DNA of 39,008 bases from a virus. Its lineage: Duplodnaviria; Heunggongvirae; Uroviricota; Caudoviricetes. Below, piece by piece: positions 811 to 35,124 of this stretch. The position numbers and the translations under genes are program-made. The stretch lies in IMG/VR virus record IMGVR_UViG_2737471857_000016, positions 1-39,008 of that record; one strand, 5' to 3'. The notes below the pieces were generated by a model. The model saw only the letters and a program-made list of their open reading frames with translations. It was not told the origin of the DNA and ran no database searches. Each line of letters opens with the position of its first letter. Within the stretch, counting starts at the first letter, position 1.

Positions 811-820
811 TATCATCTCC

Positions 821-846
821 ATAAAACAAAACTCGCCGTAGCGAGT
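821..846 (-). terminator. intrinsic terminator-like hairpin (minus strand)
   Basis: ACTCGC-CGTA-GCGAGT hairpin; on minus strand followed by TTTTGTTTTAT. Confidence 0.35.
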
Positions 847-910
847 TCAGATAAAAGAAATCCTCGACGGTGCGAGGTTTGTTAGTTGCGTTCTGCTGCG
901 GATTTAGCCA

Positions 911-1141
911 TCAACCTTCTCTCCATGCCTGGTTTCTGGTTTTAAGTCCATTGCGCTTGGCATTTCTCTGAATCCGTTTCAGTTCTTCCCTGGACTGCTC
1001 TGGAGTTATTTCTCCTCTCATAACTCGTTCAACAAGACTCCTTCTAACTTCCATACTGTCAGCGATAAGACCTTGTTCTTCTAGCTTCTCGATATTCACG
1101 CGCTTATCAAGGCGAGCATCCCAACTTGAGCGTCTCATCAT
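911..1141 (-). CDS. hypothetical phage protein (76 aa)
   Basis: ORF preceded by AGGAGG Shine-Dalgarno on minus strand. Confidence 0.5.
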   Translation of the reverse strand: MMRRSSWDARLDKRVNIEKLEEQGLIADSMEVRRSLVERVMRGEITPEQSREELKRIQRNAKRNGLKTRNQAWREG

Positions 1142-1277
1142 TCATCCTCCTGCTGTAATGCTGCAACCATGGCTTTGGTTTCAGCGATTAGATTTCGTGG
1201 TAACTGGCTACCCGCTTTTAGCATGCCTATCCCAAACACCAGCCAGCGCTGCAGCATGTCCGCATAGCCATCCGGAG

Positions 1278-1697
1278 TTACCGGAGAGTTGCCGGGTTCT
1301 TTATGTGCAAGCGAGGCTCACCATCTTTTGGCTCAGGCCACTGGCGCTCCATGTTGATCTTCAATTTATCTTCCATAGCAACGGTAATTTCAGCATCGCT
1401 GATGCCAGCACGGCGCTGTGCATCCCACAACAGGAACTGCATATCAGCCCACTCGCTAAGATCGTCTGGTTCGGCTGCGGCTTCCAGAGCCTCTTTTGAG
1501 AGGTGTTTCAGTGGACCAATGGGGCCAACGCAGCCAAATGTGGAGTCAGACCATTTGGCATGCTCGTGGCGAATCTGTTCGCGTTCCAGTAATGCCAGTG
1601 CAATTCGTGCCAGTTCCATTTGTTCGCCACGAGTAAGCCCGTTATCAAGCGGATTTTTAATGAATAATTCGATACGTTCTTTGGTTATAGTGCTCAT
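1278..1697 (-). CDS. hypothetical phage protein (139 aa)
   Basis: AAGGAG SD 7 nt upstream of ATG at 1697; tightly packed against upstream gene. Confidence 0.6.
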   Translation of the reverse strand: MSTITKERIELFIKNPLDNGLTRGEQMELARIALALLEREQIRHEHAKWSDSTFGCVGPIGPLKHLSKEALEAAAEPDDLSEWADMQFLLWDAQRRAGISDAEITVAMEDKLKINMERQWPEPKDGEPRLHIKNPATLR

Positions 1698-1698
1698 A

Positions 1699-2262
1699 TC
1701 ACTCTCCTTTGATGCGAATGCCAGCGTCAGACATCATATGCAGATACTCAACTGCATCCTGAACCCATTGACCGCCAATCCCGTAATAGCGATGCGTAAT
1801 GATGTCGATAGTTACTAACGGGTCTTGTTCGATTAACTTCCGCAGAAACTCTTCCAGGTCACCAGTGCAGTGCTTGATGACAGGAGTTTTCCCGGGATGG
1901 CGAACAACAAGAAACTGATTTCCGACTTCACGGACTTCGTTGCTTTCCAGTTCTGCAATGCGCTTCTCTGCGGCTTCCAGCTCAACTCTCAGCTTCCCTA
2001 CCGTTAGCGCAATATCCTCGTTCTCCTGATCACGGCTTTTGATGTATTGCTGGTTTCTTTCCCGTTCATCCAGCAGCGCCAGCACGGTTTCTGGTCCGGT
2101 CAGAAATTTGAAGGCGTTGAGCGCATCAATATCCACACCGTAATCCTTAAGTTCCTGTTCAGTTAACAAATCATCATCAACTGGCAACATTAACAGGCGT
2201 TCCATTGCCGGAATTGCACGTTCTGCCGCCTCACGCAGTACCTGATAGTCAATCTTGCTCAT
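1699..2262 (-). CDS. Ea22-like early protein (187 aa)
   Basis: N-terminus [16 protein letters not shown] resembles Ead/Ea22-like prophage proteins; central coiled-coil-like segment; AAGGAG SD; ATGA overlap with upstream gene. Confidence 0.6.
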   Translation of the reverse strand: MSKIDYQVLREAAERAIPAMERLLMLPVDDDLLTEQELKDYGVDIDALNAFKFLTGPETVLALLDERERNQQYIKSRDQENEDIALTVGKLRVELEAAEKRIAELESNEVREVGNQFLVVRHPGKTPVIKHCTGDLEEFLRKLIEQDPLVTIDIITHRYYGIGGQWVQDAVEYLHMMSDAGIRIKGE

Positions 2263-2816
2263 TGGATGACTCCTTTACGAAGCTGTTCGGCGATATCTTC
2301 GAGAACGCCATCAGAGAATGAGCGGTCAAAATCGCCTTCCGGCGCATTAGCCATAAACTCAGTAGAGGTAAGAATCATCCGGGCAATATCCGCGGCGTTC
2401 TTCGCAGTATCATCAATAAAACCAGCTTTCCAGGCTGCCAACATTCTGTTCGCCACAAAATAAGCGCCTTCCTTGCGTGCTTCAGTCTTCCCTTCAGCCA
2501 GAAAAGCATCGGTGGCTGGGGTTTCAGTAACATCATCTTCCCATTCGCTAAACTCCTCACGACAAAAGTCATTAAATTCCTTCTCAGATTGCTTAAGCGA
2601 GGTATTTTCAGCAGCCATCTTCGCGCATTTAGCCTCAAGGTTATCAATCGTGATTCCAGCAGAACGACACTCCCGCAACGCCGTTTCCAGTTTTGATTCA
2701 AGTTCACCGAACTTACGGACAAGATATTCAGCGTTTGTTTCGTTAACCTTTAAATCTCGGGGGATGCATTTACCTTTCAGAAATCCATCCATCTCAATTA
2801 GTGTCATTTGTTTCAT
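2259..2816 (-). CDS. hypothetical phage protein (185 aa from first ATG; ORF open to 2834)
   Basis: Long minus-strand ORF; first ATG at 2816 with GGAG upstream; stop overlaps next gene start (ATGA). Confidence 0.6.
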
Positions 2817-2973
2817 TTCTTCCCACTCCGCCACATCGCATTCAGATATTTGTTTTGATTCACTGATGGAAAAGAATTTCTCTTAAGCAATTCCTCTCTC
2901 GATGGCATTGGCTTTACGCGTTGGCGAATAATCATTTCTGCCGGAAGAATGCCTGGATTGTATGCAAGTCCTC

Positions 2974-3264
2974 TCATGATTTACTCTCCACGAACTGGTC
3001 AATAGCCATGCTAAGTGACACACCTAAAGTCTCGATATGCTGCTGAACATCCTGTAGCGTCTGCGCCTGAGATAACAGGATTTCACGGTTGCATAACTCT
3101 TTAACCAGATGCTCAAACTTGCTGTAATAACCGATACGGCTTAGTGTTTCTTTCCCTGCATTCTCGCCTTCTTTGATAATTCCTCTTTCGCTAAGAATCA
3201 GGTCGTGTTTGGTTCCGGTAATAACGTATTTTCCGAGGTCGATGTTTAGCTTCATTGTTTTCAT
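2974..3264 (-). CDS. hypothetical protein (96 aa), possibly Abc1-like anti-RecBCD
   Basis: ATG at 3264 with GAGGA SD; size and position next to recombination module fit P22 abc genes; similarity not verified. Confidence 0.45.
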
Positions 3265-3274
3265 TGTTAATTCC

Positions 3275-3571
3275 TCAGTCATTACTGATAGCGCCATAGC
3301 GTGAGCGGTAATTACGCAGGCGCGGGTCGATATATTCAGGGAAGTGGGTATATGTGGCTTTGCGGAATGGTCGGATTGATGTCTGGTAAATTCGCTCGCG
3401 CTCTTCTTTCTCTGCAAGCCATATACAATGGCGAAATTCCTTTTCCTCTTTCGTTTCCTGCGGTAGCGACATTATCCGGTCGTAGTTTTTCCTGAATTTA
3501 TCCAGCACCTCCGATACGGAATTGCCGGAACAGCGGCGCGCGTCATCCGCACCATACAGAGGCGCTGGCAT
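3275..3571 (-). CDS. hypothetical protein (98 aa), possibly Abc2-like anti-RecBCD
   Basis: AGGAG SD upstream of ATG at 3571; N-terminus MPAPLYGADD... recalled as Abc2-like; unverified. Confidence 0.45.
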   Translation of the reverse strand: MPAPLYGADDARRCSGNSVSEVLDKFRKNYDRIMSLPQETKEEKEFRHCIWLAEKEERERIYQTSIRPFRKATYTHFPEYIDPRLRNYRSRYGAISND

Positions 3572-3584
3572 GATTTTCTCCTGA

Positions 3585-4052
3585 TTAAATTGCGTGAATA
3601 GCGTGACGAGGGAAGGGGAGAGTTACTGGTTCCTCGTCTGGATATATTGGCTTGTTGTGCTTGTGCCATTCAACATGACATGCTTTGCATAGCCACATCA
3701 CTTCAAGAGGTTTACTGTAATCGCAGTGGTGAGCGTCTGGGTGGCATTTGCTGTTGCATTTCTGACACGTTGTTGGTCTACATAACTTACCAGATTTAAT
3801 TGCCCGTTTGACTGACCATCTTGCTTGCTGTCTTTGGCGATGAGATTCCAGATAGTTCTCTCTTGCTTTGCTTAATGCAACCTTGCCCTTTTCGCTTTTG
3901 TTATATTTTTTACAAGCATTATTATGTATTAGCTTTCCTATTCCTTTTTGATATTCAGTTACTCGTTTTTTAGTGCATTCCTTGCACACCTTATTTCTAG
4001 GATAAAAACCATTAGGTGGTTTATTCTCTCCACATTTTTTGCAAGTGATCAT
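3585..4052 (-). CDS. HNH-motif / zinc-ribbon nuclease-like protein (155 aa)
   Basis: CxxC...CxxC pairs and HHCDYSKPLEVMWLCKACHVEWH segment fit the HNH pattern; GGGAG SD before ATG at 4052. Confidence 0.55.
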   Translation of the reverse strand: MITCKKCGENKPPNGFYPRNKVCKECTKKRVTEYQKGIGKLIHNNACKKYNKSEKGKVALSKARENYLESHRQRQQARWSVKRAIKSGKLCRPTTCQKCNSKCHPDAHHCDYSKPLEVMWLCKACHVEWHKHNKPIYPDEEPVTLPFPRHAIHAI

Positions 4053-4067
4053 ATTTTCTCCCAATGA

Positions 4068-4529
4068 TTAAAATGGGATCTCATCGTCGAAGTTCATAGG
4101 AGGTTCGCTCTGTTGTGCTAGTGATGATTGCTGCTGTGGCTTCTGTGATTGCCTGCTGGCTGCTTGTTGTTTGCTGTCGCCAATGCCGCCAAGCATTTGC
4201 ATCACGCCATTAATTCCGACATGAACCTCGGTTGTGTAACGGTTTTGTCCTGACTGGTCTTTCCACTTTCTGGTTCTCAGCATTCCCTCGAAATAAATCT
4301 GATCACCTTTTTTCACATACTGCCCCACGACCTCAGCCAGTTTCCCGGATACAGCAACACGATGCCATTCAGTCAATTCCTTTTGCTCGCCAGTATTTTT
4401 ATCTCGCCATTGTTCTGACGTGGCTATTGTCAGGTTAGCGAACGCTGTACCTGATGGTGAGTATCGAACTTCCGGGTCTTGTCCTACCCGACCAAGGATA
4501 ATCACCTTATTTACGCCTCTGCTTGCCAT
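4068..4529 (-). CDS. ssb: single-stranded DNA-binding protein
   Basis: OB-fold SSB sequence ([23 protein letters not shown]...) with acidic C-terminal tail ending DDEIPF. Confidence 0.9.
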
Positions 4530-5237
4530 TTATGCCGCCTGTTTTAGTTCGTTAACTCTGATGTTCATTACCTGAACGCATTTAGCCTGCGCCTCCTCGT
4601 TGCCAGCCATTAATTGCCAGTCACGCTGATAACGCTCGATGAGTTTTTTCTTGTCAGTTTCTGTTGACGCATAATCGCTGAAGTCTTTCAGGATTTGTTC
4701 GCAGTCAACCGATGGAGATTTCTGGTTGGTATTTTCTGGTGATGGTTTGTTATCTGATGCTGGTATTGCCCATCCAGGCAGCGATGGAGGGAGCCAGTAA
4801 AATCCTGTTCCATCCTTGAGTTTTGCCCTGTGCCATCCCTGCTTTTTATCGAGAGATGTTTGTGCGAAACCTTCCTCAATGTTATACAGATACCGACCGA
4901 TTCCCCACTGAACGGCAGCGCGCTTCATTGCACCGGAACGACCACCTTTGACGGCTTCTACCTGCGTGTTTTCAGCAGCATCCCATTTGGTTACCCATTC
5001 GGAATCAATCTTTATTGATATGCCGCATTCAACTCCGCCGTTGTTGGTAATATCGCGGTATTCATTGCGCCATCCTGCTTTGCCACAAACATCGTCCAGG
5101 CGTTTCATGATTGCCCTGTTCGTTACATAAGCCAGCACCATAGCCCATACCTTGCCATCGCGTGTTTTACCGCTTTGCTGTATTCGCCATTCGATATCTT
5201 CAGGGCAGAATGGCTCATCGAATTTGTTCAAATCCAT
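4530..5237 (-). CDS. Rad52-family single-strand annealing protein (recombinase)
   Basis: Motif AMKRAAVQWGIGRYLY characteristic of Rad52/Sak-type annealing proteins; GAGGTG SD; immediately upstream of ssb. Confidence 0.65.
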   Translation of the reverse strand: MDLNKFDEPFCPEDIEWRIQQSGKTRDGKVWAMVLAYVTNRAIMKRLDDVCGKAGWRNEYRDITNNGGVECGISIKIDSEWVTKWDAAENTQVEAVKGGRSGAMKRAAVQWGIGRYLYNIEEGFAQTSLDKKQGWHRAKLKDGTGFYWLPPSLPGWAIPASDNKPSPENTNQKSPSVDCEQILKDFSDYASTETDKKKLIERYQRDWQLMAGNEEAQAKCVQVMNIRVNELKQAA

Positions 5238-5336
5238 AATTCACCTCAGAATGGACACGGCCCAAGGAAATAACGCTGATTTAATACTTCGACTCGGGAC
5301 AAATTAAGGCATACCCGCATTCCTTCGCGGTCGCCA

Positions 5337-5495
5337 TTATGGCGATACCAGAGAGCTTTCTGCGTGTACATGCGTCTCTGTAACTTGCTCTCCTTCACTG
5401 TGGTTGCAAGTGACATGAATATCTCCTTCGTTGCCGATTAATTCTTTTATCTGACGAATGAATTCTTCGTCTGACCAGTTATCCGTAAAACTCAT
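5337..5495 (-). CDS. small hypothetical protein (52 aa; kil-position gene)
   Basis: ATG overlaps the stop of the upstream cIII-like gene (ATGA), suggesting translational coupling. Confidence 0.4.
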   Translation of the reverse strand: MSFTDNWSDEEFIRQIKELIGNEGDIHVTCNHSEGEQVTETHVHAESSLVSP

Positions 5496-5662
5496 GGACG
5501 GCCTTGTTGTTTCAAAATATCCCAAAGCTTTTCGAGCAAACTTTTCATTCTTGGTTGTTTAAAGTCTGCTCCGGTTAAAATATTTTTTCGTGAATGCTGT
5601 ACCGATAAAATCGGGTTGAAAGGGCGAACCGATGCCGCCCCTGCAATAGCGAACTGTTGCAT
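5492..5662 (-). CDS. cIII: cIII-like protein (FtsH inhibitor), 56 aa
   Basis: N-terminus MQQFAIAG and C-terminal LLEKLWDILKQQG resemble lambda CIII; AAGGAG SD 6 nt upstream. Confidence 0.5.
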   Translation of the reverse strand: MQQFAIAGAASVRPFNPILSVQHSRKNILTGADFKQPRMKSLLEKLWDILKQQGRP

Positions 5663-5845
5663 AGGATGCTCCTTCTGTTTGATTGCATAACGAAAACGCC
5701 TCGAGTGAAGCGTTATTGGTATGCATATAAAAAGGCCCCCACATCGGAGGGCAAAGAAGATTTCCAATAATCAGAACAAGTCGGCTCCTGTTTAGTTACG
5801 AGCGACATTGCTCACATAGCAGACTCGTAAATCTGCTATAGGCGC

Positions 5846-6004
5846 TTATTCGCATCGCATGACAACATCAAATTTTTCGAGATTACTTTGTCGCAACAAT
5901 CCTTCTTCTACTCGGTCAGCTTTTCTATAATTATCAAATTCGAAATGTTTAATTACTTCTTTTGTTTCTCGCTCTATAACTTCAACGATGTATCTCTTAT
6001 TCAT
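5846..6004 (-). CDS. small hypothetical protein (52 aa), AT-rich
   Basis: ORF MNKRYIVEVIERE... with ATG overlapping stop of upstream gene (TAATG); markedly AT-rich compared with neighbours. Confidence 0.3.
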   Translation of the reverse strand: MNKRYIVEVIERETKEVIKHFEFDNYRKADRVEEGLLRQSNLEKFDVVMRCE

Positions 6005-6273
6005 TACTCATCACCTAGGGCTTTTTTGATAGCTTCGCGAGCCTTATTAACAGCTCCATACCATTCTGGATATGTTGTCGTTGTTCTATTTTCGGCTTGC
6101 TTAAGTAATAACTGAAGTGCTTCAAGTAAATCCGGTGCAGCCATAGCCAACCTTCCATTTGCTACGGCCTCTTCTGTTTCTTTACCGGATAGGGCCATTC
6201 CCGGGTGTGAAAATAAAATTAAGCCTGCAAAATTGGCTTCTCGCCAATTTTTCCTAGTACCTTTAAATTCCAT
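6004..6273 (-). CDS. hypothetical protein (89 aa)
   Basis: ATG at 6273 with GAGG SD; lies between the Ral-like and cIII-like genes in the pL operon. Confidence 0.5.
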   Translation of the reverse strand: MEFKGTRKNWREANFAGLILFSHPGMALSGKETEEAVANGRLAMAAPDLLEALQLLLKQAENRTTTTYPEWYGAVNKAREAIKKALGDE

Positions 6274-6311
6274 GTTAGCCTCTGTTGTTATGCCAAAAAT
6301 AAAGGCCACCG

Positions 6312-6512
6312 TCAGGCAGCCTTGTTATTCTGTTTACCAAGTTCTCTGGCAATCATTGCCGTAGTTCGTATTGCCCATTTATCGACATACTTCCCATCCT
6401 CCATTACAGGAAGCATTTCTTCAGGCTTAACCATGCATTCCGATTGCAGTTTGCATCCATTGCATCGCTTGAATTGTCCACACCATTGATTTTTATCAAT
6501 AGTCGTAGTCAT
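6312..6512 (-). CDS. ral: Ral-like restriction-alleviation protein (66 aa)
   Basis: 66 aa, begins MTTTIDKNQW, immediately downstream of N in pL operon, as lambda ral; identity recalled not verified. Confidence 0.55.
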   Translation of the reverse strand: MTTTIDKNQWCGQFKRCNGCKLQSECMVKPEEMLPVMEDGKYVDKWAIRTTAMIARELGKQNNKAA

Positions 6513-6590
6513 AAGGATAGTCCTGGTATTGCTCCATCACATCCTGCGGATGCTCTTCGAACTCTTCAAATTCTTCTTCCATATCTCACC

Positions 6591-6890
6591 TCAAATAAGT
6601 GGTTTGCTGCCTAATTTCATTTTCTGGCGACCAACACAAGTCACCCCCATTTCACTGCGTGGCTTGCGGTAGTAAATACGGTTCTGTTTACGCTCGACTT
6701 CTTCTGCCTTCTTGCAGCGAAGGCTTCCGAGTGATGCTGCTTTATCTGCTCTGACGCAACCAGAGAGCTTTAGCGCAATTTTTCGTGCCAGTCGCTGCTC
6801 TTGCATTGCCTGTTCACGTTGAGCCTGTCTGCGTGCTCTGCGGCGATTTCTGGCGTTATCGTCAGCCAGATATGTAATGACTACTGTCAT
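6591..6890 (-). CDS. N: N-type transcription antitermination protein
   Basis: N-terminus MTVVITY... followed by arginine-rich motif NARNRRRARRQAQ, like P22 gp24/lambda N; GGAGG SD; nutL and OL upstream. Confidence 0.7.
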   Translation of the reverse strand: MTVVITYLADDNARNRRRARRQAQREQAMQEQRLARKIALKLSGCVRADKAASLGSLRCKKAEEVERKQNRIYYRKPRSEMGVTCVGRQKMKLGSKPLI

Positions 6891-7247
6891 GTTGACCTCC
6901 GATGATTGACTTTGGCGGTGACGCGCCGGGTGCTTATCTTCCGGTTGCCGTCGTGCAGCTGCACTTCACGTCACCCCAAAGCCAACTACTCTTTGACTCA
7001 CACTCTCGCAGTGAGCGCGCTCATGCCCTTGAGTCTCTGTCGCTTATTAGCCGCTGATAACCGGTGCGCGTCTGGCATTCGCGCTGCCTTTCCGGAGCAT
7101 GTTCCCTTATTTACCCTCACATCGGTCTGCTAAACCTGCTCGCCATTACGCGACTCGGGGCAGCATCATTACTGCTGCATTGCCTTTCGGCTGCGGTCTA
7201 ACCGCGTTAGTGCACCATTACGGCACCTCCTGTTTGGTTAAACTCAG

Positions 7248-7289
7248 TTCCCGCATTTCGGCGGGACAATCCCATCAATGTTAAAGAGC
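7248..7289 (-). promoter_or_regulatory. nutL (boxA + boxB hairpin)
   Basis: On minus strand GCTCTTTAACA (boxA-like) then hairpin GTCCCGCCGAAATGCGGGAAC; same boxA/boxB recurs downstream of cro. Confidence 0.5.
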
Positions 7290-7336
7290 CTGCCAATCTG
7301 TTCCGTTTGGCTTCCAGCGTCCTGCTGATGGCTAAA

Positions 7337-7423
7337 GAATACTGTAGGTATTTTATTGTGTAAATACCCAAGGTATTTATTTTTGGTGAAATAATGATAA
7401 GCAAATGAATACAAAGGATATTT
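7337..7423 (-). promoter_or_regulatory. OL operator cluster / pL region
   Basis: Three 17-bp operator-like palindromes with half-site (G/A)AATAC: 7337..7353, 7362..7378, 7407..7423; same motif found in OR. Confidence 0.55.
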
Positions 7424-7508
7424 ATTTTTTCGGTGTCTGCTTGTTCAGTGTTTTTTATGCGGGATATGTGAAGTGGATCCCGATAGCTATTGCTGCCGGG
7501 ATTATGGG

Positions 7509-7877
7509 TTAGTCAGCGAAGGTTAAGACGAGAATTACCTTAATGATGTCTGCTACAACAGACACGGCCATAGATAAACCAAAGACGATCCAAGCCACAG
7601 TGATGTCTTCACTACCATCGTATAGAGTTCCGTAATCACTGGTGTAAGGCGTAAATGTCGCGCCTTGATACAATAGGTATAAGCTTGATCCATAGAGGAT
7701 AAATGCAGATATCCCTTGTATTGCTATGATCACCAGAATCATGAAACGAGCTGATCTATGCGCCCAAGCCTGGCTTATTTTTTCTGATAGAGATTTCGCA
7801 ATAAAAGCATGCGCTAAGCCGTAAATTGTCGAGATTGCCAACATCCCAAAAAAGCTTGCTATAGCGGTTCCAACCAT
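7509..7877 (-). CDS. small polytopic membrane protein in rex position (122 aa; alt TTG start at 7898)
   Basis: Three to four hydrophobic helices; starts 17 nt after cI stop on same strand (alt TTG start overlaps cI stop), so co-transcribed with repressor. Confidence 0.6.
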   Translation of the reverse strand: MVGTAIASFFGMLAISTIYGLAHAFIAKSLSEKISQAWAHRSARFMILVIIAIQGISAFILYGSSLYLLYQGATFTPYTSDYGTLYDGSEDITVAWIVFGLSMAVSVVADIIKVILVLTFAD

Positions 7878-7894
7878 AATCGCCCCTTGCGTGA

Positions 7895-8611
7895 TCAAAC
7901 CAGCCTTAGTTTTGTCTCAATTGCAACGCCTATAATCTTGCAGTTTCCATTGATTGGCACGAGAGGCCATGCAGGATTAAGTCCCTTGAGGTATTTATTT
8001 CCGCCGTCGATTATCAGCTTCTTGAATGTTGCTTCGTTAGAGTCAGAAAGTTTTGCTATGACCAAGCTGCCGTTGATCGCCTCCCTTCCGGTATCGAAAA
8101 GAACGAATGTTCCCTCTGGAATGCTTAACCCAACCGGTGCCGTCATTGAATCACCTTCCACTTTAAGCCAGAACGCATTACCTTGAATATGCGCGTCAGA
8201 CTCAAGCCAAACATCTATGTCTTTAATGGTGTATGGTTCGCATGCTTCACACCACGAGCCAGCCTGGATACTGCTTAACACCGGATACCTCTTTCCTGCT
8301 CTGTATTCCCCTGCATACCTTACGTTGGCATCGCTCTTAAGGCTTTCTGCCTGTTCTGCAACCTTGGCAGCAATTGACTGGCTAAAATCAGCAATTGAGA
8401 CTTGCAACAAACGTGCAAAACCAGATGCGACCTCAACGTTTAGCGCGTTTCTGCCATTAAGATAATGCCCTACCGCTCCTTGGGTGATACCCAGTTCATC
8501 AGCGATTGAGTATTGGGTTATTCCCAATTCTTTCTTTTTTGACTCATACAAAGCCTTAAGCCGCTTAGCGTCTTCGAGCTGTTCTGTCGTCAGTGATTTT
8601 TTATTTTCCAT
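7895..8611 (-). CDS. cI: CI-type prophage repressor (HTH + S24 LexA-like peptidase domain)
   Basis: Strong resemblance to lambda CI throughout (LTQEQLEDARRLKA..., FWLEVEGNSMTAP... equivalents); divergent from cro across an operator region. Confidence 0.9.
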   Translation of the reverse strand: MENKKSLTTEQLEDAKRLKALYESKKKELGITQYSIADELGITQGAVGHYLNGRNALNVEVASGFARLLQVSIADFSQSIAAKVAEQAESLKSDANVRYAGEYRAGKRYPVLSSIQAGSWCEACEPYTIKDIDVWLESDAHIQGNAFWLKVEGDSMTAPVGLSIPEGTFVLFDTGREAINGSLVIAKLSDSNEATFKKLIIDGGNKYLKGLNPAWPLVPINGNCKIIGVAIETKLRLV

Positions 8612-8717
8612 AGCTTAATTCTAATAGCTAAGGTACTTAAACTAAAAATACCCTGAGTATTGATTGCTTTGAATACCTGTAGTATTCTTTGTTCATGGTT
8701 AATAACGGAGAGTGCAT
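8612..8717. promoter_or_regulatory. OR operators with divergent pRM/pR
   Basis: 17-bp palindromes AAATACCCTGAGTATTG (8646..8662) and GAATACCTGTAGTATTC (8671..8687) between cI and cro starts. Confidence 0.6.
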
Positions 8718-8912
8718 ATGATTCGAATGACACTTGCCGATTACGCCAAAATCCATGGACAGGCTAAAGCAGCCAGTGACTTTGGTGTAATCCAGTGCGC
8801 TATCAGCAAGGCCATTCTGGCAGGCCGTAACATTATGGTTACGGTAAAGCCTGATGGCAGTGTGATTGGAGAGGAAGTTCGTCCTTTCCCAAGCAACAAG
8901 AAAAACAAATAG
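8718..8912 (+). CDS. cro: Cro repressor
   Basis: Resembles lambda Cro (…[20 protein letters not shown]…[16 protein letters not shown]); GGAG SD upstream of ATG 8718. Confidence 0.8.
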
Positions 8913-8919
8913 TAACACC

Positions 8920-8963
8920 GCTCTTTAACAGTCATGGTCCTCATTCCCGCCGAAATGCGGGAA
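8920..8963 (+). promoter_or_regulatory. nutR (boxA CGCTCTTTAACA + boxB hairpin)
   Basis: boxA-like 8920..8931; hairpin TTCCCGC-CGAAAT-GCGGGAA 8944..8963, matching the nutL copy. Confidence 0.55.
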
Positions 8964-8969
8964 TACAAC

Positions 8970-9000
8970 GCGCATAAGTTGATGCGCATAACTTCTTATT
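8970..9000 (+). terminator. tR1-like terminator
   Basis: Hairpin GCGCAT-AAGTTG-ATGCGC followed by T-rich ATAACTTCTTATT between cro and cII. Confidence 0.4.
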
Positions 9001-9020
9001 AGTTAAGGAAATACTTACAT

Positions 9021-9299
9021 ATGCAACTTACAAGTACTCGCAAGAAAGCGAATGCAATTACAAGCAACATCCTGAATCGAATTGCTGTACGTGGTCAGCG
9101 AAAGGTTGCCGACGCGTTAGGGATTAATGAATCGCAAATTTCGCGATGGAAAGACAGCTTCATCCCAAAGATGGCCATGCTTCTGGCTGTGCTGGAGTGG
9201 GGTGTTGAAGACGAGGAATTAGCGGAGCTGGCAAAGAAAGTAGCCATGGTGCTGACAAAAGAAAAGCCTCAAGACTGCGGCAACAGTTTTGAGGCCTGA
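9021..9299 (+). CDS. cII: CII transcriptional activator
   Basis: Close resemblance to lambda CII (…SQISRWK…IPKMAMLLAVLEWGV…). Confidence 0.85.
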   Translation: MQLTSTRKKANAITSNILNRIAVRGQRKVADALGINESQISRWKDSFIPKMAMLLAVLEWGVEDEELAELAKKVAMVLTKEKPQDCGNSFEA

Positions 9300-9335
9300 T
9301 GTAGAAAGACTGGATCAATCCACAGGAGTAATTAT
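9256..9335 (-). ncRNA. OOP-like antisense RNA (terminator well defined, 5' end approximate)
   Basis: On minus strand a 12-bp stem (9266..9295) followed by TTTTCTTTTG lies inside the 3' end of cII, as for lambda OOP. Confidence 0.4.
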
Positions 9336-9495
9336 GACAAAACGTCGTAAGAAATACCAGGAAAAAGAAGAGATTCGACACCCTGATTCACCTGAGGGAT
9401 TAGTGGTAGCCGCAGCAAATAACAGGGCGTTCGCAGAGCGCCTTGTTGGTGTTTACAGACTAGCCAAAGCAGGAGTGAAACATGGGCGTCGTTAA
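9334..9495 (+). CDS. small basic hypothetical protein (53 aa)
   Basis: ATG 9334 preceded by AGGAG; sits between cII and the replication initiator. Confidence 0.35.
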   Translation: MTKRRKKYQEKEEIRHPDSPEGLVVAAANNRAFAERLVGVYRLAKAGVKHGRR

Positions 9496-9544
9496 GTTAG
9501 CTGATTACAGGCATAACCCTGTACAACATCAGGAGGCATCCAGT

Positions 9545-10383
9545 ATGGGGTATGTCTCTATACACCGCCAGTTTATGGACAGCAGGCTCTATAAGGACTC
9601 TCAGGCAGTACATCTTTGGCTTCACTTAATCCTCAAGGCTAATCACGAATCTACTGTCGTCAATACGGATATTGGGCCGATAACTGTTGATCGCGGTCAG
9701 ATGATAACTGGACGCCCGTCTCTGGTCAGAGAAACATTCATCCCCGACAACAAAGTTCGGAGCTTATTACGGACTTTTGAGTCGAAAGGTATGCTTAATA
9801 TTTGCTCGATGGGAAAGAAATTTAGCCTGTTTACAATCGTTAAATATGACGATTTTCAGTCAAAAAATTGTCCAACGGTTGTCCAACGGTTGTCCAACGG
9901 TTGTCCAACGCAAACACCAGTAATGGCGCGGCTCTCAGCGGAGATTGTCCAACGGTTGTCCAACGGTTGTCCATAAACAATAATATAAATAATATCTCTA
10001 ATACTGACGTATTAGAGAGTGCCACAGCAGACAAAAAGTCTGACAAGAAAAAACCTTCCGTTAGCTGTCAGGATGTTGTCGATGCTTACCACGAAATCCT
10101 TCCTGAAGCGCCAAGAATCCGCGCACTGAATGACAAGCGTAAAAACCAGATCCGAACGTTCTGGCGCAAAGCCGGAGTGATAACCCGCCAGCTTGACGGG
10201 CATGGGTTCACGATGCAGGACTGGAGAAATTATTTGAGCTACGTAGGCGAAAATTGCCGATGGATGTTCGAAGAGCGCCCAAACCATCAGCGCGGAACCG
10301 TCTGGCACAAAAAGGGATTTGATTTCCTGCTTAACGATAATACCTACCTGAAAGTTCGTGAGGGTGAACACGATGACCGATAA
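9545..10383 (+). pseudogene. O-like replication initiator, split by frameshift inside its iteron array
   Basis: N-terminal ORF (AGGAGG SD, ATG 9545) ends at TAA 9974..9976; C-terminal part continues in another frame open from 9850 to 10383; deleting one 11-bp iteron restores one ~276-aa ORF. Confidence 0.6.
9868..9973 (+). repeat. origin iterons: 11-bp direct repeats TTGTCCAACGG (4 copies, then 2.5 copies) followed by AT-rich tract
   Basis: Directly visible tandem repeats 9868..9910 and 9945..9973; AT-rich 9974..10015; located inside the O-like gene as ori-lambda iterons are. Confidence 0.8.
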
Positions 10384-11809
10384 TTTTTATGCGCCGCCCC
10401 ATAGCATCGAGGCAGAGCAGGCGGTGATTGGTGGATTGCTTCTGGATGATGACAGCAGTGAGCGCGTCCAGAAAGTTCTGGCGATGCTGAAGCCTGATTC
10501 ATTTTACAGCCGACCACACAAAATCATTTTCGAAGAAATAACCAGAATGCACCGTGAGCAAAAGCCAGTAGATGGCCTGACGCTTTTCGATGAACTGGAG
10601 CGTAAATCGTTAACGGCGTCTGTTGGCGGTTTTGCTTATATCGCTGAGATCGCAAAGAACACGCCAAGCGCAGCAAACATCGTTGCTTATGCAATGCAGG
10701 TTCGCGAAACCGCAATGGAACGCTACGCCATCAACCGCATGACTGAAGCGACGGAATTGCTCTATTCCCGCAATGGAATGACTGCAACGCAGAAGTACGA
10801 AGCTATTCAGGCGATTTTCACGCAACTGACAGACCATGCAAAAACCGGATCGCGTCGCGGCCTTCGCTCATTTGGTGAGGTCATGGAAGACTGGGTTAGC
10901 GACCTTGAGAAGCGATTTGATCCATCAGGCGAACAACGGGGAATGAGCACAGGGATCCCATCGCTGGACAGGATGCTGTCACCGAAAGGTCTGGTGAAAG
11001 GCTCTCTGTTTGTCATTGGCGCTCGCCCTAAGATGGGGAAAACGACGCTATACAGCCAGATGGCAATCAATTGCGCAGTGCATGAGAAAAAGCCCGCATT
11101 GATGTTCAGCCTTGAAATGCCAGGTGATCAGATACTGGAAAAACTGGTAGGGCAGAAGTCTGGTGTTAACCCGAATATTTTTTACCTTCCGGCGACAAAT
11201 GACGCCGATGACGGCTATCAGGGTGATTACGATGGTGACTTCAACAGGGCGATCGAAACAGCCAATCGCTTGAGTGAAATCGACATGCTTTACATCGACG
11301 ACACGCCGGGATTATCTCTGGCTCAAATCGTCAGCGAAAGCCGTCGAATCAAGCGAGAAAAAGGATGTGTTGGCATGATTCTGGTCGATTACCTGACACT
11401 AATGACAGCTGAGAAGGCCGATCGCAACGACCTTGCTTACGGCATGATCACCAAAGGACTGAAGAACCTTGCCAAAGAGCTTGATTGCGTTGTTGTGCTT
11501 CTGACACAGCTTAACCGCGCACTGGAAAGCAGAACCAATAAACGCCCATTACCAAGTGACTCACGAGATACAGGGCAGATTGAACAGGATTGCGATTATT
11601 GGGTGGGGATCCATCGTGAAGGTGCTTTTGATGACAGTGTTCCACCTGGTGAAACCGAACTAATCCTTCGTCTCAATCGTCATGGCAATACCGGCACGGT
11701 GTATTGCATTCAGGCAAATGGCGCTATTTATGACACAGACCAACAGTCTGCTGAAATGCGCCGCCGTGAACGCGAGGAACCGCAATCCAAGAAGAAAGGA
11801 GGATTCTGA
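10373..11809 (+). CDS. DnaB-like replicative helicase (P22 gp12-type)
   Basis: DnaB N-terminal domain (SIEAEQAVIGGLLLD) and Walker A GARPKMGKTT; GAGGGTG SD; ATG overlaps end of O-like gene. Confidence 0.9.
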   Translation: MTDNFYAPPHSIEAEQAVIGGLLLDDDSSERVQKVLAMLKPDSFYSRPHKIIFEEITRMHREQKPVDGLTLFDELERKSLTASVGGFAYIAEIAKNTPSAANIVAYAMQVRETAMERYAINRMTEATELLYSRNGMTATQKYEAIQAIFTQLTDHAKTGSRRGLRSFGEVMEDWVSDLEKRFDPSGEQRGMSTGIPSLDRMLSPKGLVKGSLFVIGARPKMGKTTLYSQMAINCAVHEKKPALMFSLEMPGDQILEKLVGQKSGVNPNIFYLPATNDADDGYQGDYDGDFNRAIETANRLSEIDMLYIDDTPGLSLAQIVSESRRIKREKGCVGMILVDYLTLMTAEKADRNDLAYGMITKGLKNLAKELDCVVVLLTQLNRALESRTNKRPLPSDSRDTGQIEQDCDYWVGIHREGAFDDSVPPGETELILRLNRHGNTGTVYCIQANGAIYDTDQQSAEMRRREREEPQSKKKGGF

Positions 11810-32706: not shown

Positions 32707-33096
32707 CTAACATTTTCTTTTTACTTTTCCAACAAAAGCTTTGGTTGAATCCATATTTCCATAACCGGAAATGGTTTTTGACATTAAAACTGTTCCAGTA
32801 GGATGTATTACCCATGAGTCGATAACGCGTTGAGTTTCGCCATTCGCGCCGATTCCTATGATGGAGTTTTTAGACAATGCTTTGTAAGCCATGCCGCCCG
32901 CATCTGTCCCAGAATATGTGATGCTGGCATCTTCACCGTTTGTCTTAATGATGAATGTTCCACTAAAACCATCTTCTTCCGGATGGAAATTATTTCGTTC
33001 TGAATAGCTTATTCCGCGCATATCTCCAACGACCCAGCACTCTGCTGTAGCCCCAAAAGATATGAATAAGAACATAGCAGTAAGAAATTGCTTCAC
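32707..33096 (-). CDS. secreted protein of unknown function (129 aa, signal peptide)
   Basis: N-terminal signal peptide MKQFLTAMFLFISFGATA; AT-rich gene opposite to the late operon, immediately after gp16-like gene. Confidence 0.6.
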   Translation of the reverse strand: MKQFLTAMFLFISFGATAECWVVGDMRGISYSERNNFHPEEDGFSGTFIIKTNGEDASITYSGTDAGGMAYKALSKNSIIGIGANGETQRVIDSWVIHPTGTVLMSKTISGYGNMDSTKAFVGKVKRKC

Positions 33097-33213
33097 GCCA
33101 ACCTCCTTAGTTTTGAGCAGGATACCATGAAAAAAGTAAACATCTTTTGCCTACTTCACATTTGAATGGTTTGTCATTAGGATGTTTCCGGTTTTTTAAA
33201 TATGGAAATTGAT

Positions 33214-33633
33214 ATGAAGAGGATTATTGGCGTCGTTGCTGGCGCTATATTGTTATCTGGGTGCGCAACTATTGTTGGTGACGAAACGCAGCTTGTGCAA
33301 GTGAACAGCAATCCTTCCGGTGCGAGCTTTAAGGTAAAAGACGAATCAGGCGTGATTGTTGCGCAAGGTAAGACCCCGCAAGGAGTAACTCTTGCCAAGT
33401 CAGATGGTAGTTATTTTGGCAAAAAGAGCTACCAGATCACTATGGAAAAGGATGGGTACGAACCAGTTACCCTGCCAATCAAAGCCAATGCTAATGGCTG
33501 GTATATTGGTGGAAACCTTGTGTTTGGTGGGTTAATTGGTTGGCTTGCTGTAGATCCTTTTAATGGTGGGATGTATACCTTGAAGCCAAAAGAGGCAAAC
33601 GCATCTCTTATACCATCAACAAAGCAAGACTAA
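33214..33633 (+). CDS. lipoprotein with PEGA-like domain and C-terminal glycine-zipper segment (alt start 33202)
   Basis: Lipobox LLSGC after signal sequence; PEGA-like pattern (SNPSGASFKV…GKTPQGV…KDGYEPV); Gly-rich hydrophobic C-terminus GGNLVFGGLIGWLAV. Confidence 0.65.
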   Translation: MKRIIGVVAGAILLSGCATIVGDETQLVQVNSNPSGASFKVKDESGVIVAQGKTPQGVTLAKSDGSYFGKKSYQITMEKDGYEPVTLPIKANANGWYIGGNLVFGGLIGWLAVDPFNGGMYTLKPKEANASLIPSTKQD

Positions 33634-33640
33634 TAAATAG

Positions 33641-33668
33641 GACCCACCTTCAGGTGGGTTTTTTGTAC
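33641..33668. terminator. bidirectional intrinsic terminator
   Basis: ACCCACC-TTCA-GGTGGGT hairpin with T-run on plus strand and U-rich tract on minus; between lipoprotein gene and mnt. Confidence 0.6.
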
Positions 33669-33901
33669 AAATCCTTCAGCGTATCAAACACCATCTTCTT
33701 AACAAGCTCTGACTGCTCATCAGCGAGTCGTTCTGCATCGTCGCGATATCCAGTCACAGGCGATGGTTTTGATAGAGCATCTTGGACGATTTGTAACAAC
33801 TCGGAGTTCATTGATCTCCCATTCGCCTCCGCCCTGAATTTTAATTTCTCCCTTACTTCCATAGGCATACGGAAGTTAAAGTGCGGATCATCTCTAGCCA
33901 T
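33650..33901 (-). CDS. mnt: Mnt repressor (ribbon-helix-helix)
   Basis: 83 aa; sequence recognised as P22 Mnt (MARDDPHFNFRMPMEVREKLKFRAE...). Confidence 0.85.
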   Translation of the reverse strand: MARDDPHFNFRMPMEVREKLKFRAEANGRSMNSELLQIVQDALSKPSPVTGYRDDAERLADEQSELVKKMVFDTLKDLYKKPT

Positions 33902-33922
33902 GCCATCACTCCAAGTTAGTGT

Positions 33923-33976
33923 ATTGACATGATAGAAGCACTCTACTATATTCTCAATAGGTCCACGGTGGACCTA
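33923..33976. promoter_or_regulatory. immI control region: Pant (-35 TTGACA, -10 TATATT), O-arc and O-mnt operators
   Basis: O-arc ATGATAGAAGCACTCTACTAT (33928..33948); O-mnt palindrome ATAGGTCCACGGTGGACCTAT (33956..33976). Confidence 0.7.
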
Positions 33977-33991
33977 TATTGTGAGGTGAAT

Positions 33992-34153
33992 ATGAAAGGA
34001 ATGAGCAAGATGCCGCAGTTCAATTTGCGGTGGCCTAAAGAAGTATTGGATTTGGTCCGCAAGGTGGCGGAAGAGAATGGTCGGTCTGTTAACTCTGAGA
34101 TTTATCAGAGAGTAATGGAAAGCTTTAAGAAGGAAGGGCGCATTGGCGCGTAA
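33992..34153 (+). CDS. arc: Arc repressor
   Basis: 53 aa [53 protein letters not shown]; GAGGTGA SD. Confidence 0.85.
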
Positions 34154-34221
34154 AGTTGAAGCCCCAACTGCGGGAACAGTCAGGGCTTCGGTTGTCAGTA
34201 AATCCGTGGAGAAAAACCAAC

Positions 34222-35124
34222 ATGAATAGTATAGCAATTTTAGAAGCAGTGAACACCTCTTATGTACCATTCAACGGTCAGCAAATTATCACCGCCATGG
34301 CTGCCGGAGTTGCATATGTTGCGATGAAGCCAATCGTTGAAAACCTTGGAATGAGCTGGTCAACGCAGCAAACAAAACTCATGAAGCAGATTAGCAAATT
34401 CAACTGTGTTCATATGAACATGGTTGCCGCTGATGGGAAGCTTCGTAAGCTACTCTGCCTTCCTTTGAAGAAGTTAAATGGATGGCTGTTCAGCATCAAC
34501 CCTGAGAAAGTTCGTGCTGACATCCGTGATAAACTGATTCAGTACCAGGAAGAATGCTTTACTGTACTGCATGACTACTGGACAAAGGGAAAGGCAGAAA
34601 ATGCACGTAAGAAAACATCTGTTGATGACAGGACTCAGCTTCGTGATGCTGTAAATATGCTAGTCAGCAAAAAGCATCTAATGTACCCAGAAGCTTATGC
34701 AATGATTCATCAGCGTTTCAATGTGGAAAGTATTGAAGAGCTTGATGCATCTCAGATACCGCAAGCCGTAGAGTACATCCACAGGGTAGTGCTTGAAGGT
34801 GAATTTATCGGCAAACAAGAGAAGAAAACCAACGAGCTTTCTGCAAAAGAAGCAAACAGCCTTGTATGGTTATGGGATTATGCCAACCGCTCACAGGCAT
34901 TATTCCGCGAACTGTATCTGGCGCTAAAACAAATTCAATCGAACTATTCCGGCAGATGCTACGACTATGGCCATGAGTTCTCGTATGTTATCGGAATGGC
35001 GAGAGACGTTTTAATCAATCACACACGAGATGTTGATATTAATGAGCCAGACGGACCAACGAATCTTTCCGCATGGATGAGACTTAAGAATAAAGAATTA
35101 CCTCCTTCAGTACATAACTACTGA
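34222..35124 (+). CDS. ant: Ant antirepressor
   Basis: 300 aa from ATG 34222 ([10 protein letters not shown]...), downstream of arc as in P22. Confidence 0.8.

What the first reader, a model, noticed from the sequence alone, without database searches (positions are those of the whole stretch)
7509..7898. Small polytopic membrane protein coupled to cI in the rex position
A 122-130 aa protein with three to four predicted transmembrane helices lies directly downstream of the lambda-like cI on the same strand (alternative TTG start overlaps the cI stop; first ATG is 17 nt later with an AGGGG SD). Genes in this slot (lambda rexAB and others) are expressed in lysogens and are typically exclusion or abortive-infection functions. 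This protein shows no resemblance to RexB that I can see and has no RexA partner, so it may be a single-component membrane exclusion or abortive-infection factor.
Basis: partly seen in the sequence, partly recalled or inferred. Interest (0 to 1): 0.7.

Follow-up and report, generated by a model that had tools for sequence, protein, structure and literature searches.

The report
Uncharacterised membrane gene hkaS after cI
The open reading frame is real: it is hkaS, a 122-residue, three-helix inner-membrane protein of unknown function that always sits just after the HK620-type prophage repressor gene, in a slot where other phages keep anti-phage genes. It is a reasonable but untested candidate for a new small exclusion protein.

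Summary
A 369-nt gene (7509..7877, minus strand; 390 nt from the alternative TTG) starts 17 nt after the stop codon of a lambda-type cI (HTH_3 + Peptidase_S24) and has an AAGGGG Shine-Dalgarno sequence.

It is not new as a sequence. It is hkaS of coliphage HK620 (annotated 'unknown' in 2001) and corresponds to PHROG 6534 ('unknown function').

It is a real gene:
- It is intact in 80 of 80 copies examined.
- dN/dS is about 0.13.
- Length, start codon and SD are conserved down to 52% identity.

The protein is predicted to have three transmembrane helices (N-terminus out, C-terminus in), a basic cytoplasmic loop and an acidic periplasmic hairpin (AF2 pLDDT 89).

The family is very small and confined to Enterobacteriaceae prophages. 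It has no detectable relative by sequence or fold among RexB, the Sie/Imm families, Hex, holins or PADLOC models. It always travels with this one cI/cro type, yet its protein sequence changes 4-9 times faster than cI.

I found no functional study. The exclusion interpretation therefore rests only on position (the same slot holds rexAB, hex and bstA) and on anatomy. My best guess is a lysogen-expressed block to phage genome entry at the inner membrane (confidence about 0.35). The rivals are abortive infection, modulation of the lysogenic switch, and a host-fitness role. Interest is moderate.

The parts
7509..7877 (-). hkaS coding sequence from the ATG start (122 codons plus a TAA stop). The product is a predicted three-helix inner-membrane protein.
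   Evidence: ORF list. PHROG 6534 at E 2.9e-79, aligned to residues 8-129 of the TTG form. 98.4% identical to HK620 hkaS. Hydropathy. AF2 pLDDT 89.3. dN/dS 0.135. Intact in 80 of 80 copies.
7896..7898 (-). Alternative in-frame TTG start that overlaps the cI stop codon. It is probably not used.
   Evidence: One search lists the ORF from this TTG. The TTG is not conserved in the diverged lineages, and homologues start at the ATG.
7883..7888 (-). Shine-Dalgarno sequence AAGGGG, 5 nt upstream of the hkaS ATG.
   Evidence: Sequence. AAGGGG is kept in 79 of 79 IMG/VR copies, with a 5-7 nt spacer. Diverged lineages have AAGGA at the same place.
7895..8611 (-). cI repressor (238 aa), immediately upstream of hkaS and presumably co-transcribed with it.
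   Evidence: HTH_3 and Peptidase_S24. 99.6-100% identical to the cI of HK620 and mEpX2. The gap to hkaS is 17 nt, and no promoter-like or terminator-like site lies on the minus strand between the cI start and hkaS.
7477..7502 (-). Stable RNA hairpin 9 nt after the hkaS stop codon, with no U run. It is a candidate 3' end or stabiliser of the cI-hkaS transcript.
   Evidence: -13.7 kcal/mol, z -4.0. Hairpins of unrelated sequence occupy the same place in three other lineages, with z from -2.4 to -4.6.
7336..7423 (-). pL and the OL operators (repeats of the form ATAYC-N5-GTAT). This is the downstream boundary of the cI-hkaS unit.
   Evidence: Promoter-like site at 7364..7336. HK620 annotation of pL and OL1-3, transferred using the offset window = L001 locus + 4299. 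Sequence.
8612..8717 (.). OR operators with pR and the inferred pRM. The -10 hexamer TAGAAT at 8623..8618 on the minus strand ends 6 nt before the cI ATG, which suggests a leaderless cI-hkaS mRNA as in lambda.
   Evidence: HK620 annotation of OR1-3 and pR. Sequence printed. The pRM assignment is my own reading of the sequence and was not tested.

Best explanation
hkaS is an accessory gene of the HK620-type immunity module.

**Expression.** It is transcribed with cI, from pRM in lysogens and from pRE during establishment of lysogeny. It is translated from its own SD and ATG.

**Product.** The 122-residue protein inserts into the inner membrane as three helices. The N-terminus and an acidic beta hairpin face the periplasm. 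A short basic amphipathic helix and the conserved C-terminal ...ILVLTFAD end face the cytoplasm.

**Proposed function.** I propose that in the lysogen it acts as a stand-alone superinfection-exclusion protein. It would interfere with the inner-membrane step of genome entry by heteroimmune phages, as T4 Imm and P22 SieA do, with no enzymatic activity and no partner protein.

**Shown here:**
- the gene is real and under purifying selection;
- its position and its tight linkage to cI;
- its membrane architecture (by prediction);
- the absence of any soluble domain.

**Inferred, not shown:**
- co-transcription from pRM;
- expression in lysogens;
- any effect on phages, and the step at which it would act.
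For: **Real, constrained gene.**
- dN/dS is 0.135.
- All 80 copies are intact.
- Length, ATG and SD are conserved down to 52% identity.

**Operon arrangement.**
- The gap after cI is 17 nt, with no promoter-like or terminator-like site in between.
- A hairpin follows the stop codon in four lineages.
- The same arrangement holds in every context examined: L002-L009 and 79 of 79 IMG/VR loci.

**Anatomy fits a passive membrane blocker.** The protein is almost wholly membrane-embedded, with three helices, loops of about 17 and 20 residues, and no domain hit in Pfam, NCBIfam or PADLOC.

**The slot is a known home of prophage-expressed exclusion genes.**
- rexAB (PMC8585504).
- hex, 'heterologous exclusion', in the pRM operon (PMC3564112).
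- bstA.

**Fast protein evolution, as expected of a gene in conflict with other phages.**
- cI is 86-95% identical where hkaS is 52-83% identical in the same loci.
- Polymorphism is 20 synonymous / 23 non-synonymous in hkaS against 39 / 5 in cI (Fisher p 2.8e-5).
- The periplasmic loop is the least conserved region, at 50% mean pairwise identity.

**Dispensable for lytic growth, if one published sequence is correct.** Plaque-forming phage HF4s carries a 1-nt deletion that frameshifts the gene.

**No other identified exclusion gene found in the parts of the window I examined.** I checked the ORFs in 5000-11000 and 32600-35300 and the long ORFs elsewhere, plus six ORFs against PHROGs, and saw no SieA- or SieB-like gene.
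Against: - There is no experimental or transcriptomic evidence of any kind, and I found no paper on the gene.
- It has no sequence or fold similarity to any known Sie, Imm or Rex protein.
- Injection-blocking Sie genes such as P22 sieA lie in the late region, between gene 16 and the tailspike gene (PMC2629481). hkaS travels with the immunity module instead. It occurs in podoviruses (HK620, this window) and in siphoviruses (mEpX2) alike.
- The most conserved parts are the cytoplasmic loop (73% identity) and the C-terminal end. That points to a conserved cytoplasmic or inner-leaflet partner rather than a periplasmic one.
- Faster protein evolution could simply reflect the low constraint typical of transmembrane segments. 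Most polymorphisms are conservative singletons.
Confidence: 0.35

Rival explanations
1. Single-component abortive infection. HkaS accumulates harmlessly in the lysogen's inner membrane. On infection by another phage it opens or oligomerises, like RexB without RexA or like a holin triggered by depolarisation. This collapses the membrane potential and aborts the infection.
For: - It occupies the slot of the Abi systems rexAB and bstA.
- Three helices with N-out/C-in topology is the layout of class I holins (my own knowledge of lambda S; topology here).
- Membrane-embedded polar residues are conserved: Q54 and K113 are invariant and D110 nearly so.
- Linkage to the immunity module rather than the virion module suits a defence against unrelated phages.
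Against: - There is no sensor domain and no partner gene.
- It lacks the charged C-terminal tail typical of holins; the protein ends at ...TFAD.
- hhalign probability against RexB is 0.6%.
- No significant PHROG match other than its own family, PHROG 6534, and no PADLOC match.
Confidence: 0.2
2. Modulator of the lysogenic switch rather than a defence. HkaS would tune the stability, induction or establishment of lysogeny of its own prophage, for example through a membrane-bound host factor such as FtsH or through RecA-dependent cI cleavage. Precedents are 434 Hex and lambda RexA/RexB, which both affect the switch.
For: - It is strictly linked to a single cI/cro specificity: all contexts and 79 of 79 loci. 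The neighbouring cII and N genes, by contrast, are mosaic.
- The cytoplasmic loop is the most conserved region.
- It would also be made from pRE during the lysis-lysogeny decision (inference).
- Precedents: Hex lowers spontaneous induction in a RecA-dependent way (PMC3564112); RexA/RexB bias the lambda switch (10.1101/2021.04.19.439022 and PMC11077077).
Against: - It has no homology to Hex (hhalign probability 0.06%), and the Pfam scan returned no hit to Lambda_CIII or to any other family at its curated score cut-off.
- Phages with related repressors (65-71% identity) lack it, so the repressor family does not need it.
- The tight linkage may merely reflect a 17-nt gap that leaves no room for recombination.
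- The HF4s frameshift is tolerated.
Confidence: 0.13
3. Lysogenic-conversion or host-fitness factor unrelated to phages, for example altered envelope permeability, stress or antimicrobial tolerance, or transport.
For: - It would be expressed with cI in every lysogen (inference).
- It is kept intact in prophages of 146 complete E. coli genomes and in 80 of 80 copies examined.
- It is a membrane protein with conserved buried polar residues.
Against: - It matches no transporter, GtrA-like or stress-protein family.
- The family is confined to one immunity type in a few enterobacterial genera. This fits a phage-phage role better than a general host benefit.
Confidence: 0.15
4. Not a functional gene: a chance or decaying ORF in the spacer between cI and OL.
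For: There is no annotated function, and one phage (HF4s) has a frameshift.
Against: - dN/dS is 0.13-0.2 with synonymous sites near saturation.
- A 122-codon length is conserved across six lineages.
- SD and ATG are conserved.
- None of 80 copies is disrupted.
- The AF2 model is confident.
Confidence: 0.02

Closest known systems
HK620 hkaS / PHROG 6534 (also mEpX2_043 and the 'HkaS protein' of HK630)
   Same: It is the same gene. It is 98-99% identical, sits in the same place between cI and OL/pL, and matches the PHROG profile along its full length.
   Different: Nothing differs, but neither HK620 hkaS nor PHROG 6534 has an assigned function. This identification names the gene without explaining it.
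Lambda RexB (with RexA)
   Same: A small polytopic inner-membrane protein encoded downstream of cI on the pRM transcript, just before OL/pL.
   Different: RexB has 144 aa and four helices (literature) and needs RexA. hkaS has 122 aa and three helices, has no partner gene, and shows no detectable homology (hhalign probability 0.6%).
Phage 434 / Sf6 Hex ('heterologous exclusion', repressor protection protein)
   Same: A single gene of about 130 codons that abuts or overlaps the cI stop codon and is co-transcribed from pRM. HK620 cI is annotated as similar to 434 cI.
   Different: Hex begins with a hydrophobic, signal-peptide-like N-terminus followed by a mostly polar sequence, and is not a polytopic membrane protein (my reading of the translation). 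There is no homology. This window carries a separate Hex homologue elsewhere, at 32707..33096 (E 3e-12).
Single-protein inner-membrane superinfection-exclusion factors (P22 SieA, T4 Imm, HK97 gp15)
   Same: They are small inner-membrane proteins without enzymatic domains, made by the resident phage and sufficient on their own. SieA alone blocks DNA delivery (PMC10461980).
   Different: There is no sequence relationship; the only significant PHROG hit is 6534. sieA lies in the late-region 'ant moron' rather than next to the repressor (PMC2629481). The function of hkaS is untested.
BstA (Salmonella prophage BTP1)
   Same: It occupies the same slot downstream of cI, presumably shares the repressor promoter, and is a single-gene defence (PMC8585504).
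   Different: BstA localises to sites of phage DNA replication and has a DNA-based self-immunity element, aba (PMC8585504). hkaS is a small membrane protein with no homology to it.

Membership tests
HkaS family (PHROG 6534) | Full-length sequence match to the family profile | tested here: met
   E 2.9e-79; protein residues 8-129 against profile positions 1-122 of 122. 98.4% identical to HK620 hkaS.
HkaS family (PHROG 6534) | Located directly downstream of an HK620-type cI and upstream of OL/pL | tested here: met
   Window. HK620 and mEpX2 annotation. Loci L002-L009. 79 of 79 IMG/VR loci.
Lambda RexB | Sequence or profile homology to RexB | tested here: not met
   hhalign probability 0.6%, E 0.1. 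No RexB-type PHROG or PADLOC hit.
Lambda RexB | Adjacent rexA partner gene | tested here: not met
   Only 17 nt separate cI from hkaS, and hkaS is followed by a hairpin and OL/pL. No further ORF belongs to the unit.
Lambda RexB | Excludes T4 rII and other phages by membrane depolarisation | not testable with these tools
   Needs plating and membrane-potential assays.
Inner-membrane Sie proteins (P22 SieA, T4 Imm, HK97 gp15 type) | Small integral inner-membrane protein with no other domain | tested here: met
   Three hydrophobic segments and positive-inside loop charges. AF2 model. No Pfam or NCBIfam domain. All of this is prediction only.
Inner-membrane Sie proteins (P22 SieA, T4 Imm, HK97 gp15 type) | Sequence homology to a known Sie family | tested here: not met
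   PHROG scan at E <= 1 returns only family 6534 and two insignificant unknowns. PADLOC returns none. The HMM search of 1.84 billion representatives finds only its own family.
Inner-membrane Sie proteins (P22 SieA, T4 Imm, HK97 gp15 type) | Expressed from the prophage and blocks genome entry of superinfecting phage | not testable with these tools
   Expression is inferred from the operon layout only. No experimental data were found.
434 Hex | Sequence homology to Hex | tested here: not met
   hhalign probability 0.06%. By contrast, window ORF 32707..33096 matches Hex at E 3e-12.
Class I holins (lambda S type) | Three transmembrane helices with N-out/C-in topology | tested here: inconclusive
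   The charge distribution predicts this topology, but it is a prediction without experimental support.
Class I holins (lambda S type) | Charged hydrophilic C-terminal tail, and location in the lysis cassette | tested here: not met
   The protein ends ...ILVLTFAD at the end of helix 3. The gene lies in the immunity region.
Known anti-phage defence systems (PADLOC-DB 2.0) | Match to any defence-protein model | tested here: not met
   No families at E <= 10. The library dates from 2023, so later systems are not covered.

The most novel reading that the evidence does not exclude
HkaS is a self-contained sensor and effector in the membrane: a holin-like protein that the prophage keeps loaded in the lysogen's inner membrane. 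The perturbation caused by another phage's genome entry triggers it, and it then aborts the infection. Alternatively, it couples membrane state to the cI switch. Either reading would make it a minimal, one-gene, 122-residue counterpart of RexAB with no relatives outside one immunity type.
Probability: 0.15. Interest if true: 0.65.

Novelty: new member of a known kind. Interest (0 to 1): 0.4.

Why it matters
If HkaS does exclude phages, it would add a new and very small protein family to the prophage-encoded membrane defences. It would also give a tractable one-gene model in classical, genetically accessible coliphages (HK620, mEpX2, HK630).

It is not rare. It occurs in about 2.7% of complete E. 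coli genomes, including Stx2c-converting phages of EHEC. It could therefore influence which phages, therapeutic ones included, can infect those strains.

It would also strengthen the rule that whatever is transcribed with the repressor is worth testing for defence. If it instead modulates the switch, it would be a third unrelated solution, after RexAB and Hex, to the same regulatory niche.

Tried and rejected
**Domain and family scans of the protein.**
- Pfam, NCBIfam and PADLOC gave nothing. The only Pfam line, TssN at E 0.043 and 13.7 bits against a cut-off of 30.3, is noise.

**Homology searches.**
- The word-indexed search of 5.8 billion proteins found 12 clusters, all close relatives.
- The exhaustive HMM search of 1.84 billion representatives found only the family itself plus one fragment.
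- Profile comparison with lambda RexB and with 434 Hex found no relationship.
- PDB by sequence gave no hits.

**Fold searches with the AF2 model.**
- Foldseek against BFVD and the PDB gave nothing below E 0.29.
- The afdb50 library was unavailable.

**Structure and composition analyses.**
- Helical periodicity of conservation in the three helices was not significant.
- GC content shows no compositional break that would mark a recent insertion.

**Literature.**
- Searches for hkaS, HK620p19, the accessions, mEpX2 and related phrases found no functional study.
- Brenes & Laub 2025 (prophage defence screen) is not held in the library, so I could not check whether this gene was recovered there.
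- The DefensePredictor paper has nothing relevant in its main text.

**Hypotheses set aside.**
- A resemblance between the cytoplasmic amphipathic helix and lambda cIII. It rested on inspection only, and Pfam gave no Lambda_CIII hit.
- The TTG start, because it is not conserved.
Full report
**1. What is there**

On the minus strand, ORF 7509..7898 encodes 129 aa from a TTG that overlaps the stop codon of the upstream gene. The first ATG (7877) gives 122 aa. The upstream gene, 7895..8611, is a lambda-type repressor with HTH_3 (E 8e-10) and Peptidase_S24 (E 5e-24) domains.

The 17-nt spacer reads TCACGCAAGGGGCGATT, so an AAGGGG Shine-Dalgarno sequence lies 5 nt before the ATG.

Hydropathy gives three hydrophobic segments, not four. 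A loop carrying K, K, R and R lies between helices 1 and 2, and a loop carrying D, D, E and D lies between helices 2 and 3. By the positive-inside rule the N-terminus and the acidic loop face the periplasm, and the basic loop and C-terminus face the cytoplasm.

AlphaFold2, run on an eight-sequence alignment, gives a confident model (pLDDT 89.3, pTM 0.76). It has helices 2-29, 31-38, 41-74 and 89-121 and a small beta hairpin at 78-86.

**2. Identity**

The cI-plus-ORF block is 99.3-99.8% identical at the DNA level to the immunity regions of several phages:
- HK620, mEpX2, HK630 and HZ41, and phi296/phi367 (99.3-99.8%);
- HF4s, HK140, vB_EcoP-611R6 and two Stx2c-converting phages (98.6-99.1%).

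In HK620 (AF335538) the gene is named hkaS with product 'unknown'. The authors annotated cI, OR1-3, pR, OL1-3, pL and a 'tIMM' terminator around it. In mEpX2 it is a 'hypothetical protein'.

It matches PHROG 6534 ('unknown function') at E 2.9e-79. The match covers residues 8-129 of the protein and all 122 profile positions, which points to the ATG as the start.

The window as a whole is a mosaic P22-like prophage with terminase, portal, coat, ejection proteins, tailspike and integrase. No single phage record matched more than half of the left arm, 1-7300.

**3. Is it a real gene?**

Yes. The family contains at least six lineages, down to 52% identity. All are 122 aa and all start at an ATG preceded by AAGGA or AAGGGG. 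The TTG is not conserved.

Against the 83%-identical Hafnia-type allele, dS is 0.69 and dN/dS is 0.135. In more distant pairs the synonymous sites are saturated while the proteins still align end to end.

In IMG/VR, 79 of 79 complete loci carry the full cI+hkaS block. Counting the window as well, all 80 copies have intact 238- and 122-codon frames. The gene is present in 146 of 5426 complete E. coli genomes, always on the chromosome and always next to a LexA-family (cI) gene. The exact protein is recorded on at least 1000 contigs.

**4. Distribution and relatives**

The family is very small.
- A word-indexed search of 5.8 billion proteins found 12 clusters.
- A profile HMM read against 1.84 billion 50%-identity representatives found one further cluster and one fragment.
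- Named members come from E. coli, Salmonella, Enterobacter and Hafnia, and all are called 'hypothetical protein'.
- No Pfam, NCBIfam or PADLOC model matches.
- No PDB sequence matches.
- The fold searches return only generic helical bundles.
- Profile comparison with lambda RexB gives probability 0.6%.

**5. Context**

In every locus examined the gene lies 17-20 nt after a 238-254 aa (once 210 aa) HTH_3/S24 repressor and before the pL/N region.

The repressor and Cro of these loci belong to a single specificity group: cI is 86-95% and Cro 79-95% identical to the window's. The flanking cII and N genes are mosaic, at 22-51% identity. hkaS sits inside the conserved block, yet it is only 52-83% identical.

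Within the E. coli population, synonymous polymorphism per codon is the same in both genes (0.163). Non-synonymous polymorphism is 0.187 in hkaS against 0.021 in cI. The raw counts are 20 synonymous / 23 non-synonymous against 39 / 5, Fisher p 2.8e-5.

By region, mean pairwise identity between lineages is:

| Region | Identity |
|---|---|
| Cytoplasmic loop | 73% |
| Helix 3 | 63% |
| Helix 1 | 57% |
| Helix 2 | 54% |
| Periplasmic loop | 50% |

Conserved motifs are LS-K-I/T-S/T-Q-A-W-x-H-R/K-x-A-R-F in the cytoplasmic loop, S-x-Y-L-L-Y and T-F-x-P-Y at the periplasmic end of helix 2, and D-I-x-K-x-I-L-V-L-T-F-A-D at the C-terminus. Q54 and K113 are invariant and D110 nearly so.

**6. Expression (inferred)**

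On the minus strand, no sigma-70-like promoter or terminator-like site was found between the cI start and hkaS. The only minus-strand promoter-like site nearby is pL, at 7364..7336. hkaS should therefore be read from whatever transcribes cI: pRM in lysogens and pRE during establishment.

Nine nucleotides after the stop codon lies a stable hairpin (7477-7502; -13.7 kcal/mol, z -4.0) with no U run. Hairpins of unrelated sequence occupy the same position in three other lineages. This suggests a conserved 3'-end element for the operon.

By my reading of the sequence, a TAGAAT hexamer ends 6 nt before the cI ATG. That would make cI leaderless, as in lambda, while hkaS has a good SD. I did not test this.

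**7. What sits in this slot in other phages**

- Lambda has rexA-rexB.
- 434 and Sf6 have hex. The name stands for 'heterologous exclusion' of P22. Hex is co-transcribed from pRM and also lowers RecA-dependent spontaneous induction (PMC3564112).
- BTP1 has bstA. [quoted passage not shown]
- The epsilon34 genome paper likewise expects the two genes downstream of its repressor to be prophage-expressed, 'like rexA and rexB' (PMC2629481).
- Among phages whose repressors are 51-71% identical to this one, the slot is empty in three (OS31, ENT39118, mEp213) and holds an unrelated 200-aa soluble protein in Erwinia phage 49.

The slot is therefore an accessory-gene slot, and hkaS is one of several unrelated occupants.

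**8. Mechanism**

Nothing here tests function, and I found no publication that does. One relevant screen, Brenes & Laub 2025, is not in the library.

I commit to the following reading at a confidence of about 0.35: a lysogen-expressed, stand-alone inner-membrane protein that hinders genome entry of other phages, working like T4 Imm or P22 SieA. SieA alone is sufficient for exclusion (PMC10461980).

In favour:
- The protein is almost entirely membrane-embedded and has no sensor or enzymatic domain.
- The slot favours exclusion genes.
- The protein evolves fast, most of all on the periplasmic side.
- It appears dispensable for lytic growth. Plaque-forming phage HF4s has a 1-nt deletion in an A6 run that frameshifts the gene, although this could be a sequencing error.

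Against:
- The gene travels with the immunity module, not the virion module. It occurs in podoviruses and siphoviruses alike.
- Its best-conserved surface is cytoplasmic.

Rivals:
- A one-protein abortive-infection device, either RexB-like without RexA or a holin-like depolarisation trigger (0.2).
- A modulator of the lysogenic switch, following the precedents of Hex and RexA/RexB (0.13).
- A host-fitness factor unrelated to phages (0.15).
- A non-functional ORF (0.02). The conservation data exclude this for practical purposes.

**9. Novelty and interest**

As a sequence feature it is already known: it has been annotated since 2001. As a function it is uncharacterised. If it excludes phages it would be a new family within a familiar kind, namely prophage-encoded accessory defence next to the repressor.

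A specialist would find the hypothesis natural rather than surprising. The gene is nevertheless common (2.7% of complete E. coli genomes, including Stx2c phages), tiny and easy to test. I score interest at 0.4.

Noticed in passing
window 32707..33096 (-): A 129-aa protein with a hydrophobic, signal-peptide-like N-terminus, homologous to the phage 434 Hex ('heterologous exclusion', repressor protection) protein (BLASTP E 3e-12, 27% identity over the full length; PHROG 2651, unknown function). Here it lies not after cI but between the gene-16 homologue and the tailspike gene, where P22 carries sieA. The phage thus keeps a Hex-like gene and hkaS in two different accessory slots.
   Followed up: partly
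window 33202..33633 (+): A 143-aa predicted lipoprotein (MKRIIGVVAGAILLSGC...) that matches PHROG 6823 (unknown function), next to the Hex-like gene. It is another candidate for a prophage-expressed envelope protein.
   Followed up: partly
window 33650..35124: An apparent P22-type immI region with Mnt-like (33650..33901, minus strand), Arc-like (33929..34153, plus strand) and Ant-like (34156..35124, plus strand) ORFs. I recognised these by eye from the translations and did not test them.
   Followed up: no
window 7477..7502 (-); L002 6385-6416; L006 5465-5494; L008 1832-1859: A stable hairpin with no following U run lies 9-22 nt after the hkaS stop codon in four lineages. Its sequence differs between lineages (z from -2.4 to -4.6). 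It may be the real 3' end or stabiliser of the cI-hkaS transcript.
   Followed up: partly
window about 7397..7427 (-): The element annotated as terminator tIMM in HK620 maps here. It contains AATATCCTTTGTATT, which fits the operator repeat (ATAYC-N5-GTAT) and is conserved in the diverged lineages. It may be an OL operator rather than a terminator, since the fold is weak and AT-rich.
   Followed up: partly
L016 (phage HF4s) about 1010-1020, equivalent to window about 7784: A 1-nt deletion in the A6 run of hkaS frameshifts the gene at about codon 31 in a plaque-forming phage. This is either a sequencing error or evidence that the gene is dispensable. The homopolymer could also be a slippage-prone on/off site.
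   Followed up: partly
window 7596..7601 (hkaS codons 93-94): Two common haplotypes, Thr-Val (44 of 80) and Ser-Met (35-36 of 80), occur at the periplasmic end of helix 3. Almost all other amino-acid variants are singletons.
   Followed up: partly
window 8612..8623: A TAGAAT hexamer on the minus strand ends 6 nt before the cI ATG, and no SD is present. This suggests a leaderless cI mRNA from pRM, as in lambda, while hkaS has a strong SD. From the same transcript hkaS might therefore be translated better than cI.
   Followed up: no
window 6312..6512 (-): A Ral (restriction alleviation) homologue, PHROG 1055 at E 6.7e-49, lies just downstream of N in the pL operon. I saw no SieB-like gene among the ORFs of 40 aa or more that I examined in 5000-6600, the part of the pL operon next to N.
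   Followed up: partly
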